A stretch of DNA of 2,698 nt from NCBI RefSeq assembly GCF_003334255.1, contig NZ_QOWU01000131.1. One strand, written 5' to 3'. This DNA comes from Escherichia coli (GTDB lineage: Bacteria; Pseudomonadota; Gammaproteobacteria; Enterobacterales; Enterobacteriaceae). Shown here piece by piece: positions 1 through 2,698 of this stretch. Within the stretch, counting starts at the first letter, position 1; each line of letters opens with the position of its first letter. The position numbers and the translations under genes were made by a program. Under the pieces are notes generated by a model. It did no database searches. It was not told the origin of the DNA and saw only the letters and a program-made list of their open reading frames with translations.

Positions 1-174
1 GCGTATCACGCGCAATACGACCCCAAATAAAGCAACCTGCCTTCCACCCCTCAATTCGGGCGCCCTTCCCTCGTCGCCTGCGCACTGCAATTGCCTCGTT
101 TTTCGTGCACCGTGCAAACCGGCCTCAGCCAGCGCCGTTACTGGGCTGAATGGGGATGAAACACATAAGAAAAA

Positions 175-819
175 TTGTGCAATTTCGTGCGCTTTTGTGC
201 ATTTTTTATCTTGCGATTTTTGGGGGTGGGTGGTGATGATAATCATCTGTCTGAATCAGTGGTGTATTGCCGGGTGAGAACTGTGAAAAATTACTCATAT
301 CCTTATTTAACTTTTGTCACGCTTTCTGTTTTGGGGGGGATTTTTCTTTTTATTTGGTGGCGAAACGATGTTTACAGAATTACCTACCTTTATTCGTTCA
401 CGACAAACTGCCTTGTTTCAGTGTCTGTGGTGCTTTCGGTTTTTGTCTCACTGTGCCTGTTGAAAAAGAACCTGGTTGATCGGTCTAAATTTACCGGGGT
501 TACATCGTATCTTAAGTTTTTTTCGGGTATGTGCCTTCTTACCTGGATGATTCTGTTTACCCTCCTGGTTACGCTGATATATTTTCTTCCGGGTGAAGAT
601 TCATTCTATTCCGCTCCCTATGAGTACAGTCGCGGTAGCTCAAAAAGTTGTTCAGGGGCATTTGTTGATGATCCTGATTTGCAAAAAACAATCTTTATTT
701 GCTACCCATACGGTGACTATCAGGATGGTAATGTGATTTATGTGAAGAAGCGTGTGAATGCGCTGGGTGCGGTGGTCACCTATGCATACGCGACAAGCGG
801 CCGATTTCGGTTTGACTGA
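175..819 (+). CDS. putative small multi-pass membrane protein (hypothetical); start codon uncertain
   Basis: Frame open for 214 codons with stop TGA at 817-819. Translation shows three hydrophobic stretches (YLTFVTLSVLGGIFLFIWW, LVSVSVVLSVFVSLCLL, CLLTWMILFTLLVTLIYFL) followed by a ~75-aa Tyr/Phe-rich hydrophilic C-terminal region. No in-frame ATG until 529-531; candidate starts are TTG 175 (no SD) and GTG 283 (weak SD-like GGGTGAG at 272-278). Composition is T-rich and A-poor: by hand count, G+C is 22/60 in 301-360 and 23/60 in 361-420, versus 32/60 in 1981-2040. That bias suppresses stop codons, so the N-terminal half could be open by chance; a second frame (267-479) is also open here. Confidence 0.4.
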   Translation: MCNFVRFCAFFILRFLGVGGDDNHLSESVVYCRVRTVKNYSYPYLTFVTLSVLGGIFLFIWWRNDVYRITYLYSFTTNCLVSVSVVLSVFVSLCLLKKNLVDRSKFTGVTSYLKFFSGMCLLTWMILFTLLVTLIYFLPGEDSFYSAPYEYSRGSSKSCSGAFVDDPDLQKTIFICYPYGDYQDGNVIYVKKRVNALGAVVTYAYATSGRFRFD

Positions 820-833
820 AAAAAGAAATCCTG

Positions 834-859
834 TGTTACCCTCGCTGCTGAGGGTAACA
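834..859 (-). terminator. putative intrinsic terminator hairpin between convergent genes
   Basis: Perfect inverted repeat TGTTACCCTC (834-843) / GAGGGTAACA (850-859) around a 6-nt loop GCTGCT. It lies 10 nt downstream of the stop of the last minus-strand gene (869-871). On the minus-strand transcript the stem is followed by CAGGA and then UUUCUUUUUU (828-819). On the plus strand there is an A-tract before the stem and no U-tract after it, so plus-strand function is doubtful. The 5-nt spacer before the U-tract is not ideal. Confidence 0.5.
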
Positions 860-868
860 TGCGTGAAG

Positions 869-1186
869 TCATCGCCCGGTTCTTGAGCTGATAATGCTTT
901 GCGTCAGCAGCTGCCAGCCCTCTTTCTGTTGCCCGTACTTGTCCTGATACCTGTTTACCTGCAAGTTTCCGTGCACCAGAATCAGATCGCCTTTTCTGTG
1001 TTTTGCCAGTTCTTCGTGCTGCTTCCCGAATGAAATAAGGTAAAGCCACATTGTGGTTGGCTGTTCTGCGCCATGGCAGGGTAGTGATACCGCCAGTTGT
1101 GCCGTTGTGACGTTGGTTCCTTTGGTTGTTCTCCTTGTGTTCGGGTCTGCTGCCAGTCGTCCATCTGTTGCAACCTGTGTTGGCAT
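869..1186 (-). CDS. single-stranded DNA-binding protein-like OB-fold protein, short form without C-terminal acidic tail
   Basis: ATG at 1186-1184 is preceded by GGGAGA (1197-1192); stop TGA at 871-869. The 105-aa translation aligns by eye with the OB-fold core of E. coli SSB recalled from memory: VATDGRLAADPNTRR against VILVGNLGQDPEVRY, and WLYLISFGKQHEELAKHRKGDLILVHGNLQVNRYQDKYGQQK against [43 protein letters not shown]. The protein ends right after the OB domain, with no Gly/Gln/Pro linker and no acidic DDDIPF-type tip. This is fold-level resemblance only and has not been searched. Confidence 0.6.
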   Translation of the reverse strand: MPTQVATDGRLAADPNTRRTTKGTNVTTAQLAVSLPCHGAEQPTTMWLYLISFGKQHEELAKHRKGDLILVHGNLQVNRYQDKYGQQKEGWQLLTQSIISSRTGR

Positions 1187-1218
1187 ATTTGTCTCCCGTG
1201 TTGGTTTTATTGTTGGGG

Positions 1219-1557
1219 TTAGATGACTGGCAGCTCTTCGCCAGCGCCGTAGATAAACAGAATTCTCTTCATGATTTCGCTGCGCTTGCAGGCTTCAATT
1301 ACGGACGGCTCTTGTTGCCATTCTGCCCGTTGCGCCAGCTCCAGTCGTTCCTTTTCCGTTGGCTTCCGGTAATGCGTTATCTTGTCCGTGTACCCGTCCA
1401 CAACCAGCAGCCCTTCGCGTACCATCTTTCCGGCGGCCTGATTAATGATGGTCCTTTTCACGCCCAGTTTTTCAACCAGCTCTGGTGCGCTGAAGCGTGC
1501 GTGCGTTTCCAGGTAGCGTAAAATGATTACCTTTCCGGTCATTCTGGGTGTCTTCAT
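1219..1557 (-). CDS. putative winged-helix / HTH DNA-binding protein (hypothetical regulator)
   Basis: ATG at 1557-1555 is preceded by a perfect AAGGAG (1570-1565) with a 7-nt spacer, and overlaps the upstream stop as ATGA. Stop TAA at 1221-1219. The 112-aa product begins MKTPRMTGKVIILRYLE. The segment SAPELVEKLGVKRTIINQAAGKMVREGLLVV looks like an HTH recognition helix plus wing, as in Lrp/MarR-like regulators. The ORF track extends the frame to an ATG at 1626, but that start lacks an SD and lies inside the upstream gene. Confidence 0.65.
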   Translation of the reverse strand: MKTPRMTGKVIILRYLETHARFSAPELVEKLGVKRTIINQAAGKMVREGLLVVDGYTDKITHYRKPTEKERLELAQRAEWQQEPSVIEACKRSEIMKRILFIYGAGEELPVI

Positions 1558-1724
1558 TTGGCGGCTCCTTCGTTGTTCCGGCGTTCGCGGAGTTCGGTCA
1601 GTGCTGCCAGTAAATTTTCCCACCATGTTTCTTCCACAACCGGATTTCGTCGTGAAAGCAGCTGCTGCGCCGACTCAATCATTTTCGTAAGCTCTTTGTC
1701 GCTGATCCTCCTGATGTCGTTCAT
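1554..1724 (-). CDS. hypothetical small helical protein (56 aa)
   Basis: ATG at 1724-1722 is preceded by a perfect AAGGAG (1736-1731) with a 6-nt spacer. Stop TGA at 1556-1554 overlaps the start of the next gene (ATGA at 1557-1554), implying translational coupling. Product MNDIRRISDKELTKMIESAQQLLSRRNPVVEETWWENLLAALTELRERRNNEGAAK is charged and predicted helical. An alternative longer start at ATG 1763 has only a weak, distant SD. Confidence 0.55.
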   Translation of the reverse strand: MNDIRRISDKELTKMIESAQQLLSRRNPVVEETWWENLLAALTELRERRNNEGAAK

Positions 1725-1772
1725 GGTGTGCTCCTTCGGTTTGCTGTTTCTGGTCATGTTCATGGTCTTTTG

Positions 1773-2177
1773 TTACCTGCGTGATTGCCTGCTGGCGGCC
1801 GAATGCACATAGCGGACAATTGCCGCTTTTCGGTTAACGACGGCCAGCGTTCTTGCCAGTTCTTCGTTGAGTTTTCTGGTCTGTTTTTCGTGGTATGCCT
1901 GCATGATTTTTCCTACGGGAGTCAGTGGTTCAGGCTCTGATATGGCGCGACGAGGGCGCACGGCAACGATGAATGCGCTTCTGTCGGTGTTGGTTCTTGC
2001 AGTCAGGATGTCTGTCATGACGGTATCTGTGCTGCGATCGGGGTTTGCGATCGTGATCTCCAGTTCGTCGCCTGGCTGTGGTCGAACACTGACGCCGCTC
2101 AGCGTCAGTGCCGGAATGCGTCCACTCATGATGGCGCTGAAATCATGGCGCTGGAGTACACAATGGAATCGTGTCAT
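1773..2177 (-). CDS. hypothetical protein (134 aa)
   Basis: ATG at 2177-2175 is preceded by GGAGGTGA (minus strand, about 2192-2185) and overlaps the stop of the upstream ORF (ATGA at 2177-2174). Stop TAA at 1775-1773. Codon usage is consistent with the rest of the operon. I recognise no family. Confidence 0.65.
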   Translation of the reverse strand: MTRFHCVLQRHDFSAIMSGRIPALTLSGVSVRPQPGDELEITIANPDRSTDTVMTDILTARTNTDRSAFIVAVRPRRAISEPEPLTPVGKIMQAYHEKQTRKLNEELARTLAVVNRKAAIVRYVHSAASRQSRR

Positions 2178-2698
2178 GGGTTCACCTCCGGTTGATCTGC
2201 TGCCACCAGGCTTCGTGATTTCTCATCCCAGTGCACAATCCGCCCGTCAGGCAGGCGAACGCGTGCACCTCTGTGTACGGAAAGTGCTGCGCCACTGTGT
2301 AGCTCCTCGCCCGTCGCGCTCAGTGCCGACTTGATTACGGTGGTGGTGACGTCAGTCAGCGGCAATGCTGTACGCACATGTATGACGTCATCGGGTGTGG
2401 TGGGGCCGCCGGTTTTCACGGTTTTTGTGTCAGATGGCGCATCTTTCAGCTGCCTGGTGAGTTGTTTTCGCTCTGTGGGGGTCAGTGACCTTAACCACTC
2501 ACCCAAATCACCTCCCGGGACGACCAGTTTTTGTTCTTTCCTGGTTTCCGGTGGTGGGTTTTTACCCTCTCCGGTGTCTGTTTTTTCATCATGGGGACAG
2601 TTATTGCCACGAGTCCAAGGTGCGGCGAAGCCGCCCCCAACGTCAAAATCCTCGTCCGTGCTGTTGTCGGCTTTCGCTTCTTTTCTGACCAGTTTCCA
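2174..2698 (-). CDS. C-terminal part of a larger hypothetical protein, 5' end beyond the window; alternatively a 110-aa protein from internal TTG 2506
   Basis: I translated this minus-strand frame by hand from 2698 to the TGA at 2176-2174 and found no stop. Codon usage is enterobacterial-like (all Lys as AAA, Leu mostly CTG). The off-window N-terminal side is a Lys/Glu/Gly/Pro-rich segment (...DEDFDVGGGFAAPW...EKTDTGEGKNPPPETRKEQK...), followed by a ~110-aa C-terminal region. A TTG at 2506-2504 sits 4 nt after GGGAGGTGA (2516-2508), so an internal or alternative start is possible. The other minus frame, also open to the edge, is rich in rare Arg codons and was rejected. Confidence 0.55.
   Translation of the reverse strand, partial: WKLVRKEAKADNSTDEDFDVGGGFAAPWTRGNNCPHDEKTDTGEGKNPPPETRKEQKLVVPGGDLGEWLRSLTPTERKQLTRQLKDAPSDTKTVKTGGPTTPDDVIHVRTALPLTDVTTTVIKSALSATGEELHSGAALSVHRGARVRLPDGRIVHWDEKSRSLVAADQPEVNP

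What the first reader, a model, noticed from the sequence alone, without database searches (positions are those of the whole stretch)
869..2698. Operon architecture suggests an early or replication module of a mobile element
Five co-directional genes are separated by overlaps of 4 nt or gaps of at most 48 nt. All have strong SD sites (AAGGAG twice, GGAGGTGA, GGGAGA) and the set ends at a hairpin. The content (wHTH DNA-binding protein, SSB-like protein, small proteins of unknown function, a large upstream protein) resembles early-left or replication modules of prophages, satellites and integrative elements. The operon promoter must lie beyond the window end. This is a contextual inference; no integrase, att site or structural gene is visible here.
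Basis: inference. Interest (0 to 1): 0.4.

Follow-up and report, generated by a model that had tools for sequence, protein, structure and literature searches.

The report
Tail of P2-like prophage replication operon
The accessory genes after the replication gene are an uncharacterised combination.

Summary
All five genes lie on the minus strand. Gene spacing is 4-nt overlaps and gaps of 32 and 48 nt, and the quoted Shine-Dalgarno sites and a terminal hairpin are present.

- **Context:** near-identical copies sit in 22 complete E. coli chromosomes. In one, the window lies in a 38-kb P2-like prophage bounded by a 124-bp direct repeat of the 3' part of tRNA-Leu. That prophage has an integrase, a repressor-type regulator and a full P2-type structural gene set.
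- **Large protein:** it is the C-terminus of gpA, the rolling-circle replication nickase. The P2 origin nick site is recognisable inside it at 2597-2628.
- **Downstream genes:** a 134-aa protein with a predicted ASCH/PUA-like fold, placed like P2 Orf91; a 56-69-aa helical protein; a homologue of lambda Ren (42% identity); and an SSB with only the OB domain and no C-terminal tail.
- **Neighbourhood:** the interval lies between gpA and the portal gene, the published P2 diversity and defence hotspot. This arrangement is already listed, untested, in that paper's supplementary table.

The four small genes probably act in the lytic cycle to support or protect replication, not to defend the lysogen. 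Interest is low.

The parts
2174..2698 (-). 3' end (last 174 codons) of gene A, the gpA-type HUH rolling-circle replication initiator. The full gene is 2514 nt in related genomes.
   Evidence: RefSeq calls it 'replication endonuclease'. It matches phrog_91 'nicking at origin of replication'. The full-length protein is 31% identical to P2 A over 685 aa, E 2e-82.
2597..2628 (-). Predicted replication origin core (gpA nick site) inside gene A. The nick is predicted near 2616.
   Evidence: 27 of 32 bases match the P2 sequence around its annotated nick site at record position 29892. The core is conserved in P88. This explains the isolated, widely shared megablast hit at about 2583-2648 in phage and plasmid records, and probably most of the ~2370 weak E. 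coli hits.
1773..2177 (-). ORF134: a predicted ASCH/PUA-like beta-barrel (residues 1-76) followed by a long C-terminal helix. It occupies the position of P2 Orf91.
1554..1724 (-). ORF56, a small protein that looks helical by eye (no structure prediction was run) and has no known function. PGAP calls a 69-aa version starting at 1763.
   Evidence: It matches phrog_14672 (E 1.1e-34) over residues 14-69 only. An AAGGAG site precedes the 1724 start. It always accompanies ORF134 in related prophages.
1219..1557 (-). Homologue of lambda Ren, a winged-helix protein annotated as MarR family.
   Evidence: It is 42% identical to lambda Ren over Ren's full 96 aa, E 2e-24. It matches phrog_142 'Ren-like exclusion protein' at 1.1e-28 and Pfam MarR_2 at 3.6e-5. 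It overlaps ORF56 by 4 nt.
869..1186 (-). SSB of 105 aa with only the OB domain. It has no linker and no acidic C-terminal tip.
   Evidence: It matches Pfam SSB PF00436 at 2.1e-13. It is 29% identical to E. coli SSB residues 13-97. Relatives at 39-45% identity carry a tail ending in DDxIPF-like tips, while all E. coli alleles examined stop at residue 105.
838..861 (.). Hairpin between the convergent SSB gene and the plus-strand membrane-protein gene. It is the likely terminator of the early operon.
   Evidence: The stem is 10-11 bp. On the minus strand it is followed by ACAGGA and then TTTCTTTTTT. The consensus scan did not call it.
283..819 (+). Convergent 178-aa protein with three predicted membrane helices. 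It lies outside the finding's range and sits where P2 carries tin-old, so it is a candidate lysogenic-conversion gene.
   Evidence: It matches phrog_1416, of unknown function. A hydropathy scan finds three segments, and GC is 0.42 against 0.52-0.56 for the operon. P2 tin-old have the same convergent orientation.

Best explanation
The region is the distal end of the early (replication) operon of a complete, tRNA-Leu-integrated P2-like (Peduoviridae) prophage of E. coli.

**Shown here:**
- It contains the 3' end of gene A, which encodes the HUH nickase that starts rolling-circle replication.
- The origin nick site lies inside that gene.
- Four small genes follow, tightly packed or overlapping with gene A and with each other.
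- The set ends at a hairpin that faces a convergent, AT-richer membrane-protein gene.

**Inferred:**
- The four genes are read through from gene A. They would then be made only during lytic growth or induction, not in the lysogen.
- They act on replication intermediates.
- The tail-less SSB would coat the displaced single strand without recruiting the host enzymes that dock on the SSB tail.
- The Ren homologue would do what Ren does in lambda. There it is co-transcribed with O and P and protects the phage from Rex exclusion.
- The ASCH-fold protein is the counterpart of P2 Orf91.

The biochemical roles of ORF134 and ORF56 remain inferred or unknown.
For: - **Prophage context:** integrase, divergent regulator, P2-type structural genes and a 124-bp att repeat at tRNA-Leu.
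- **gpA identity:** homology to P2 A with conserved catalytic motifs, and the P2 ori core conserved at 2597-2628.
- **Operon architecture:** 4-nt overlaps, short gaps and Shine-Dalgarno sites. No promoter-like or terminator-like site on the minus strand within 869-2698.
- **Composition:** GC of the four genes (0.52-0.55) matches gpA (0.56), while the convergent gene is at 0.42.
- **P2 layout:** P2 has the same arrangement, with A followed by the ASCH/DUF3850 gene orf91 at a 4-nt overlap and then convergent tin-old.
- **ORF134 fold:** ASCH-like.
- **Ren homology:**. In 170 lambdoid phage records the match lies in the replication-gene region. In most of the 40 listed records it sits under a ren annotation next to P or a DnaC-like loader. 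Lambda ren is transcribed from pR with O and P and is described as likely involved in replication (bioRxiv 10.1101/2021.04.19.439022; PMC3640518).
- **SSB neighbours:** the nearest tailed relative of the SSB sits directly after a P4-alpha-type primase in another element.
- **Nested conservation:** gpA-ORF134-ORF56 is present in all the related prophages inspected, Ren in many of them and the SSB in a subset. This fits stepwise accretion onto the operon end.
Against: - There are no expression data, so co-transcription rests on gene spacing and negative consensus scans.
- The hairpin is not a canonical intrinsic terminator.
- Upstream of gpA, about 0.8 kb carrying two opposite-strand ORFs interrupts the early gene row. 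The promoter that feeds gpA may therefore not be the main early promoter.
- The four-gene set is rare, found in 38 of 5426 complete E. coli genomes.
- Three of the four proteins (ORF134, ORF56 and the SSB) and the cluster's DNA find no match in any deposited phage genome. None is therefore shown to be needed by a working phage.
- ORF134 has no sequence similarity to P2 Orf91, and its fold assignment rests on one model from a shallow 10-sequence alignment.
Confidence: 0.8

Rival explanations
1. The four small genes are an early-expressed counter-defence set, not replication helpers. Ren would neutralise a Rex-type abortive-infection system. The tail-less SSB would shield or mimic single-stranded DNA complexes that host defences sense. 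The ASCH-fold protein would bind a modified nucleotide or nucleic acid.
For: Lambda Ren is known as the factor that lets lambda escape Rex exclusion; this rests on established knowledge, and the family label is 'Ren-like exclusion protein'. The genes lie in the gpA-gpQ interval, which evolves rapidly under phage-phage conflict (PMC9122126). Presence is patchy among close relatives. The loss of the SSB tail is fixed across alleles that are 77-96% identical to the query, which suggests a selected, altered function.
Against: No counter-defence activity has been shown for any of these proteins. Ren's mechanism is unknown, and recent work links it to replication proteins (bioRxiv 10.1101/2021.04.19.439022). 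This reading overlaps with the main one, since protecting replication intermediates and supporting replication are hard to separate by sequence.
Confidence: 0.3
2. The four genes are an anti-phage defence cargo of the P2 gpA-gpQ hotspot, expressed in the lysogen to exclude other phages in the way tin and old do in P2.
For: They lie inside the interval defined as a defence and diversity hotspot. The arrangement is listed among the hotspot loci in that study's supplementary table, with the same protein accessions WP_000856784, WP_016232588 and WP_012601394. P2 Tin acts by poisoning a phage SSB (established knowledge), so SSB-related exclusion has a precedent at this locus.
Against: No PADLOC model matches convincingly; the best E-value is 7.6e-4, for a generic winged helix. 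The genes are co-oriented and translationally coupled with gpA, with no predicted promoter of their own. The known lysogen-expressed cargo of P2 is convergent with A and has its own promoter. Their GC content matches the phage backbone and not imported cargo. The convergent membrane-protein gene is the better candidate for lysogen-expressed cargo.
Confidence: 0.1
3. The tail-less SSB and its neighbours are decaying remnants with no function.
For: The SSB lacks a part that its nearest relatives have. The cluster is rare.
Against: All the diverged E. coli alleles examined, 77-96% identical to the query, keep an intact ORF of exactly 105 aa ending at the same position. Shine-Dalgarno sites and overlaps are intact. 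The surrounding prophage appears complete.
Confidence: 0.05

Closest known systems
Phage P2 early operon end and cos-proximal region (A, orf91, then convergent tin-old)
   Same: Both have a gpA-type nickase with the origin inside the 3' part of its gene. Both have an ASCH-fold gene overlapping the gpA stop by 4 nt, then convergent accessory cargo, then cos and the portal gene.
   Different: gpA is only 31% identical. ORF134 shares fold but no detectable sequence with Orf91, and it adds a long helix. Three further early genes (ORF56, Ren homologue, SSB) are appended. The convergent cargo is a membrane protein instead of tin-old.
Lambda O-P-ren segment of the pR operon
   Same: The Ren homologue is 42% identical over full length. 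It sits directly downstream of the phage's replication gene region and overlaps the preceding gene by 4 nt, as ren overlaps P.
   Different: The replication machinery is unrelated: lambda uses the O initiator and P helicase loader for theta replication, and this phage uses an HUH nickase for rolling-circle replication. No record of a Peduoviridae phage in the collection carries a Ren homologue. Rex resistance was not tested.
P4-alpha-type primase followed by SSB in a satellite-like element (locus L009)
   Same: The SSB belongs to the same subfamily (45% identity) and lies directly after the element's replication protein.
   Different: That SSB is 147 aa with a linker and an acidic FDDESGF tip, and the replication protein is a primase-helicase.
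Short OB-only SSBs such as Bacillus subtilis SsbB (PDB 3vdy)
   Same: Both are small SSB-family proteins limited to the OB fold (E 0.0018). From my own knowledge, B. subtilis SsbB also lacks the acidic tip.
   Different: The relationship is distant and the biology is different (competence), so this is a resemblance only.

Membership tests
P2-like (Peduoviridae) prophage, early/replication operon | gpA-type HUH rolling-circle initiator with the HUH motif and paired tyrosines | tested here: met
   31% identity to P2 A over 685 aa, E 2e-82. HHDGTPHWH and YIATYIGKN align with the corresponding P2 motifs.
P2-like (Peduoviridae) prophage, early/replication operon | Origin nick site inside the 3' part of gene A | tested here: met
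   27 of 32 bases match the P2 nick region, at the equivalent distance from the stop codon, and the site is conserved in P88. Nicking itself cannot be tested here.
P2-like (Peduoviridae) prophage, early/replication operon | Integrase, immunity regulator divergent from the early genes, and P2-type structural genes in the same element | tested here: met
   Annotation of NZ_LR134079 around the 99.3%-identical copy.
P2-like (Peduoviridae) prophage, early/replication operon | Attachment-site direct repeats bounding the element | tested here: met
   A 124-bp perfect repeat of the tRNA-Leu 3' part plus downstream sequence, with copies 38,026 bp apart.
P2-like (Peduoviridae) prophage, early/replication operon | Transcription of the genes as one early unit, repressed in the lysogen | not testable with these tools
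   The only support is indirect: overlaps, short gaps and no predicted internal promoter or terminator.
Lambda Ren family | Full-length sequence homology to lambda Ren | tested here: met
   42% identity over residues 1-93 of the 96-aa Ren, E 2e-24. phrog_142 matches at 1.1e-28.
Lambda Ren family | Confers resistance to Rex exclusion | not testable with these tools
   This needs a genetic test in a Rex+ lysogen.
Bacterial/phage SSB (PF00436) | OB-fold SSB domain | tested here: met
   PF00436 at 2.1e-13 over residues 4-93, and 25 PDB SSBs matched. The match is below the NCBIfam TIGR00621 cut-off (47.4 against 53.95 bits).
Bacterial/phage SSB (PF00436) | Disordered linker and acidic-hydrophobic C-terminal tip that recruits partner proteins | tested here: not met
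   The protein ends at residue 105, just after the OB fold. The nearest relatives carry DDxIPF-like tips.
ASCH/DUF3850 (PUA-like) domain proteins | ASCH beta-barrel fold | tested here: met
ASCH/DUF3850 (PUA-like) domain proteins | Sequence match to the Pfam ASCH or DUF3850 profiles | tested here: not met
   There is no Pfam match and no similarity to P2 Orf91 by BLASTP or profile comparison.
Anti-phage defence system of the P2 gpA-gpQ hotspot | Location between gpA and the portal gene | tested here: met
   the hotspot definition is in PMC9122126, and the locus is listed in its supplement.
Anti-phage defence system of the P2 gpA-gpQ hotspot | Match to a known defence protein model | tested here: not met
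   PADLOC gives only weak generic winged-helix hits, best E 7.6e-4.
Anti-phage defence system of the P2 gpA-gpQ hotspot | Own promoter and expression in the lysogen | tested here: inconclusive
   No minus-strand promoter-like site was found in the window, but a consensus scan cannot exclude one.

The most novel reading that the evidence does not exclude
Ren, the tail-less SSB and the ASCH-fold protein may form an early-expressed set that protects phage replication intermediates from host or prophage abortive-infection systems.

A Ren homologue is attached here to a rolling-circle (HUH nickase) module that is unrelated to lambda O/P. If the reading holds, Ren would act on a generic replication intermediate or host factor and not on lambda's own replication proteins. 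That would give a second, independent system in which to work out what Ren does.
Probability: 0.25. Interest if true: 0.45.

Novelty: new member of a known kind. Interest (0 to 1): 0.2.

Why it matters
It mostly confirms routine biology: a P2-like prophage with its replication gene, origin and cos-proximal variable region.

Three points have modest value.
- The gene directly after gpA is an ASCH-fold protein both in P2 and here, despite no sequence similarity. This suggests a conserved but unstudied partner of the nickase.
- A lambda Ren homologue is found attached to an unrelated replication module.
- An SSB has durably lost its partner-recruiting tail.

Each is a cheap, testable lead on how temperate phages support or shield replication. 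None overturns current understanding.

Tried and rejected
- **Deposited phages, protein searches:** the SSB, ORF134 and ORF56 found nothing in 50,697 phage records.
- **Deposited phages, DNA search:** a sensitive search with 820-2200 also found nothing. The cluster is therefore known only from prophages.
- **Plasmids:** the only substantial hits are two megabase-sized records labelled as plasmids, which may be chromosomal pieces.
- **PADLOC:** no convincing defence model.
- **NCBIfam:** only sub-threshold SSB matches.
- **Rfam:** nothing.
- **ORF134 against P2 Orf91:** no similarity by BLASTP or by profile comparison. The link rests on position and predicted fold only.
- **P2 cos region:** alignment to the sequence left of the window's genes gave no convincing match. 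The best 19-mer has 13 of 19 identities and is kept only as a lead.
- **Word-indexed homologue searches:** searches for ORF134, the SSB and the Ren homologue returned almost only E. coli proteins and added little.
- **Rejected reading:** I considered the four genes as lysogen-expressed defence cargo and rejected this as the main explanation, for the reasons given under the rival explanations.
Full report
**1. The observation**

The window has five co-directional genes on the minus strand between 869 and its right end. A script confirmed the junctions.
- gpA and ORF134 overlap by 4 nt (ATGA).
- ORF134 to the next gene is 48 nt if that gene starts at 1724. It is 9 nt if it starts at 1763, as NCBI's annotation pipeline (PGAP) calls it.
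- That gene overlaps the winged-helix gene by 4 nt.
- The winged-helix gene is separated from the SSB gene by 32 nt.

It has AAGGAG upstream, and the 56-position PHROG profile matches residues 14-69 only.

The hairpin lies at 838-861 with a 10-11 bp stem. The 72-nt minus-strand stretch containing it folds at -20.8 kcal/mol. On the minus strand its T-run starts six bases after the stem, so the consensus scan did not call it a terminator. That scan found no promoter-like or terminator-like site on the minus strand within the operon.

**2. Where it comes from**

Megablast finds the whole window at 98-99.3% identity in 22 complete E. coli chromosomes. In NZ_LR134079 the flanks hold the following.
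- On the side of the window's left end: a portal gene, a terminase gene and a full P2-type head, lysis, baseplate and tail gene set.
- On the side of the window's right end: the rest of gene A, about twenty more early genes, a divergent transcriptional regulator and a phage integrase next to yecA.

The element is bounded by a 124-bp perfect direct repeat. The repeat comprises the 3' part of a tRNA-Leu gene plus downstream sequence, and its copies are 38,026 bp apart. Its refuting condition is not met.

**3. The large protein and the origin**

The full protein is 837 aa and 31% identical to P2 gpA over 685 aa (E 2e-82). The HUH motif and the paired tyrosines are conserved.

In P2 the origin nick site is annotated inside gene A, 427 nt before its stop codon. 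The corresponding P2 sequence aligns with window 2628-2597 on the minus strand at 27 of 32 bases. The core is also conserved in phage P88. This cis-acting site explains an otherwise odd result. In phage and plasmid records, a stretch of about 56 nt around 2583-2648 is the only part of the window that matches. It is probably also what about 2370 E. coli genomes match at 80-90% identity.

**4. The four downstream genes**

*ORF134.* It has no Pfam match. An AlphaFold model has pLDDT 83 from a 10-sequence alignment, and the other four models scored about 56-63. The model shows a beta-barrel at residues 1-76 followed by a long helix.
- Foldseek against viral models returns several DUF3850/ASCH phage proteins.
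- P2 Orf91 also overlaps the stop of A by 4 nt, and it matches Pfam DUF3850 (1.6e-16) and ASCH (2.1e-10).

The two proteins share no detectable sequence. They share position, coupling to A and predicted fold.

*ORF56.* It is a small protein of unknown function that looks helical by eye; no structure prediction was run. It always accompanies ORF134 in related prophages.

*The winged-helix protein.* It is a homologue of lambda Ren, 42% identical across the whole 96-aa Ren (E 2e-24). A translated search finds it in 170 phage records, all lambdoid. In most of the 40 listed records the match sits under a ren annotation next to gene P or a DnaC-like loader. None is a Peduoviridae record. Lambda ren is transcribed from pR with O and P (PMC3640518). 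It is described as likely involved in replication, and two-hybrid interactions of Rex proteins with O and Ren have been reported (bioRxiv 10.1101/2021.04.19.439022).

*The SSB.* It matches Pfam SSB (2.1e-13) and the OB domain of E. coli SSB at 29% identity. It stops at residue 105. An exhaustive search shows it stands alone in its 50%-identity cluster. The nearest relatives, at 39-45% identity, carry a linker and a tip of the DDxIPF type. All E. coli alleles examined, 77-96% identical to the query, end at the same residue. The tail loss is therefore fixed and not a recent truncation. The closest tailed relative lies directly after a P4-alpha-type primase in another element.

**5. The neighbourhood**

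The whole window lies between gpA and the portal gene. Rousset et al. (PMC9122126) define this cos-proximal interval as a hotspot of genetic diversity and anti-phage systems in P2-like phages. Their supplementary table already lists this arrangement with the same protein accessions, untested.

Related prophages show nested conservation.
- gpA-ORF134-ORF56 is always present among the related prophages inspected.
- The Ren homologue is often present, and the SSB is present in a subset.
- Beyond that the cargo varies. One prophage has a TumE-family toxin-antitoxin pair, others an ogr-like gene, and phage P88 has ParM-type partition genes.

The four-gene set occurs in 38 of 5426 complete E. coli genomes.

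In P2 the lysogen-expressed tin-old genes are convergent with A and have their own promoter. Here the convergent gene is a 178-aa protein with three predicted membrane helices. Its GC content is 0.42, against 0.52-0.56 for the operon genes. That gene, and not the four operon genes, is the better candidate for lysogenic-conversion cargo.

**6. Most likely mechanism**

*Shown:* the region is the replication-gene end of a P2-like prophage early operon. It includes the origin, and it is followed by four tightly packed or overlapping genes encoding predicted nucleic-acid-binding proteins and one small protein.

*Inferred:* the genes are read through from gpA and act during lytic replication. The tail-less SSB would coat the displaced strand without recruiting host enzymes. 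The Ren homologue would have the same, still undefined, replication-linked or anti-exclusion role as in lambda. The ASCH-fold protein would be the Orf91 counterpart.

A counter-defence role overlaps with this reading and cannot be separated from it by sequence; I give it about 0.3. A lysogen-expressed defence role is unlikely, at about 0.1. There is no own promoter, the genes are co-oriented and coupled with gpA, their GC matches the backbone, and no PADLOC model matches.

**7. Verdict**

The context is ordinary and already catalogued. The particular accessory set is uncharacterised: an ASCH-fold gpA neighbour, a Ren homologue outside lambdoid phages, and a durably tail-less SSB. It offers small, testable leads. 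I score interest at 0.2 and class it as a new member of a known kind.

Noticed in passing
window 60-78: GCGCCCTTCCCTCGTCGCC is the best match in the portal-to-gene interval to the reverse complement of the 19-nt P2 cohesive end (13 of 19 bases). It starts with the same GGCGA when read on the minus strand, so it may be this phage's cos site. No convincing longer alignment to the P2 cos region was found.
   Followed up: partly
window 100-205: Several closely spaced copies of a GTGCA/GTGCG motif occur here: TTCGTGCACCGTGCAAACC, then TTGTGCAATTTCGTGCGCTTTTGTGCATTTTT. They lie between the cos-like site and the membrane-protein gene. They could be protein-binding sites for packaging or for the promoter of the convergent gene. 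They were seen only by reading the sequence.
   Followed up: no
window 283-819 (+): This is a convergent gene for a 178-aa protein with three hydrophobic segments and a C-terminal domain of about 75 aa. It matches phrog_1416, of unknown function. Its GC is 0.42 against 0.52-0.56 for the operon. It occupies the place and orientation of P2 tin-old, so it is a candidate lysogenic-conversion or exclusion gene.
   Followed up: partly
window 1149-1161 and 1222-1234 (minus-strand RNA): A 13-nt inverted repeat pairs the last codons of the Ren-like gene with codons 9-13 of the SSB gene, enclosing the SSB Shine-Dalgarno site and start codon. The 106-nt segment folds at -28.6 kcal/mol, z = -3.1 against shuffles. 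In a relative about 85% identical, the one substitution inside the 9-bp core changes a U-A pair to a G-U pair. This may couple SSB translation to translation of the upstream gene. Both arms are coding, so their conservation is weak evidence.
   Followed up: partly
window 1003-1017 and 1853-1867: A perfect 15-nt direct repeat, TTGCCAGTTCTTCGT, lies inside the SSB gene and inside ORF134. On the coding strand both copies encode Glu-Glu-Leu-Ala. It is probably a coincidence of coding, though my rough estimate of the chance expectation for a 15-mer in 2.7 kb is about 0.003.
   Followed up: no
window 1724-1763: The RefSeq start of the small gene (69 aa, start at 1763) lacks a Shine-Dalgarno site and extends beyond the family profile. 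The start at 1724 (56 aa) is more likely. A homologue in another prophage is annotated at 56 aa.
   Followed up: yes
L012 7575-7698 and L001 33667-33790: A 124-bp perfect direct repeat, made of the 3' part of tRNA-Leu plus its downstream terminator-like sequence, bounds the 38-kb prophage. The insertion lies between the Gly-Cys-Leu tRNA cluster after pgsA and yecA. A Hok/Gef toxin gene sits just inside the tRNA-proximal end.
   Followed up: yes
L003 4990-5738: In a related prophage (E. coli LZSFT34) the space after the SSB gene holds a TumE-family toxin-antitoxin pair in the same orientation, in place of the convergent membrane-protein gene. This shows that the variable cargo begins after the SSB.
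   Followed up: no
L001 25390-26240: About 0.8 kb with two opposite-strand ORFs interrupts the row of early genes upstream of gpA. A weak promoter-like site (TTGCCA-18-TACATT) and a terminator-like site on the early strand lie there, so the gpA segment might have its own promoter. The scan counts there are not clearly informative: promoter-like sites are at the level of the shuffles.
   Followed up: partly
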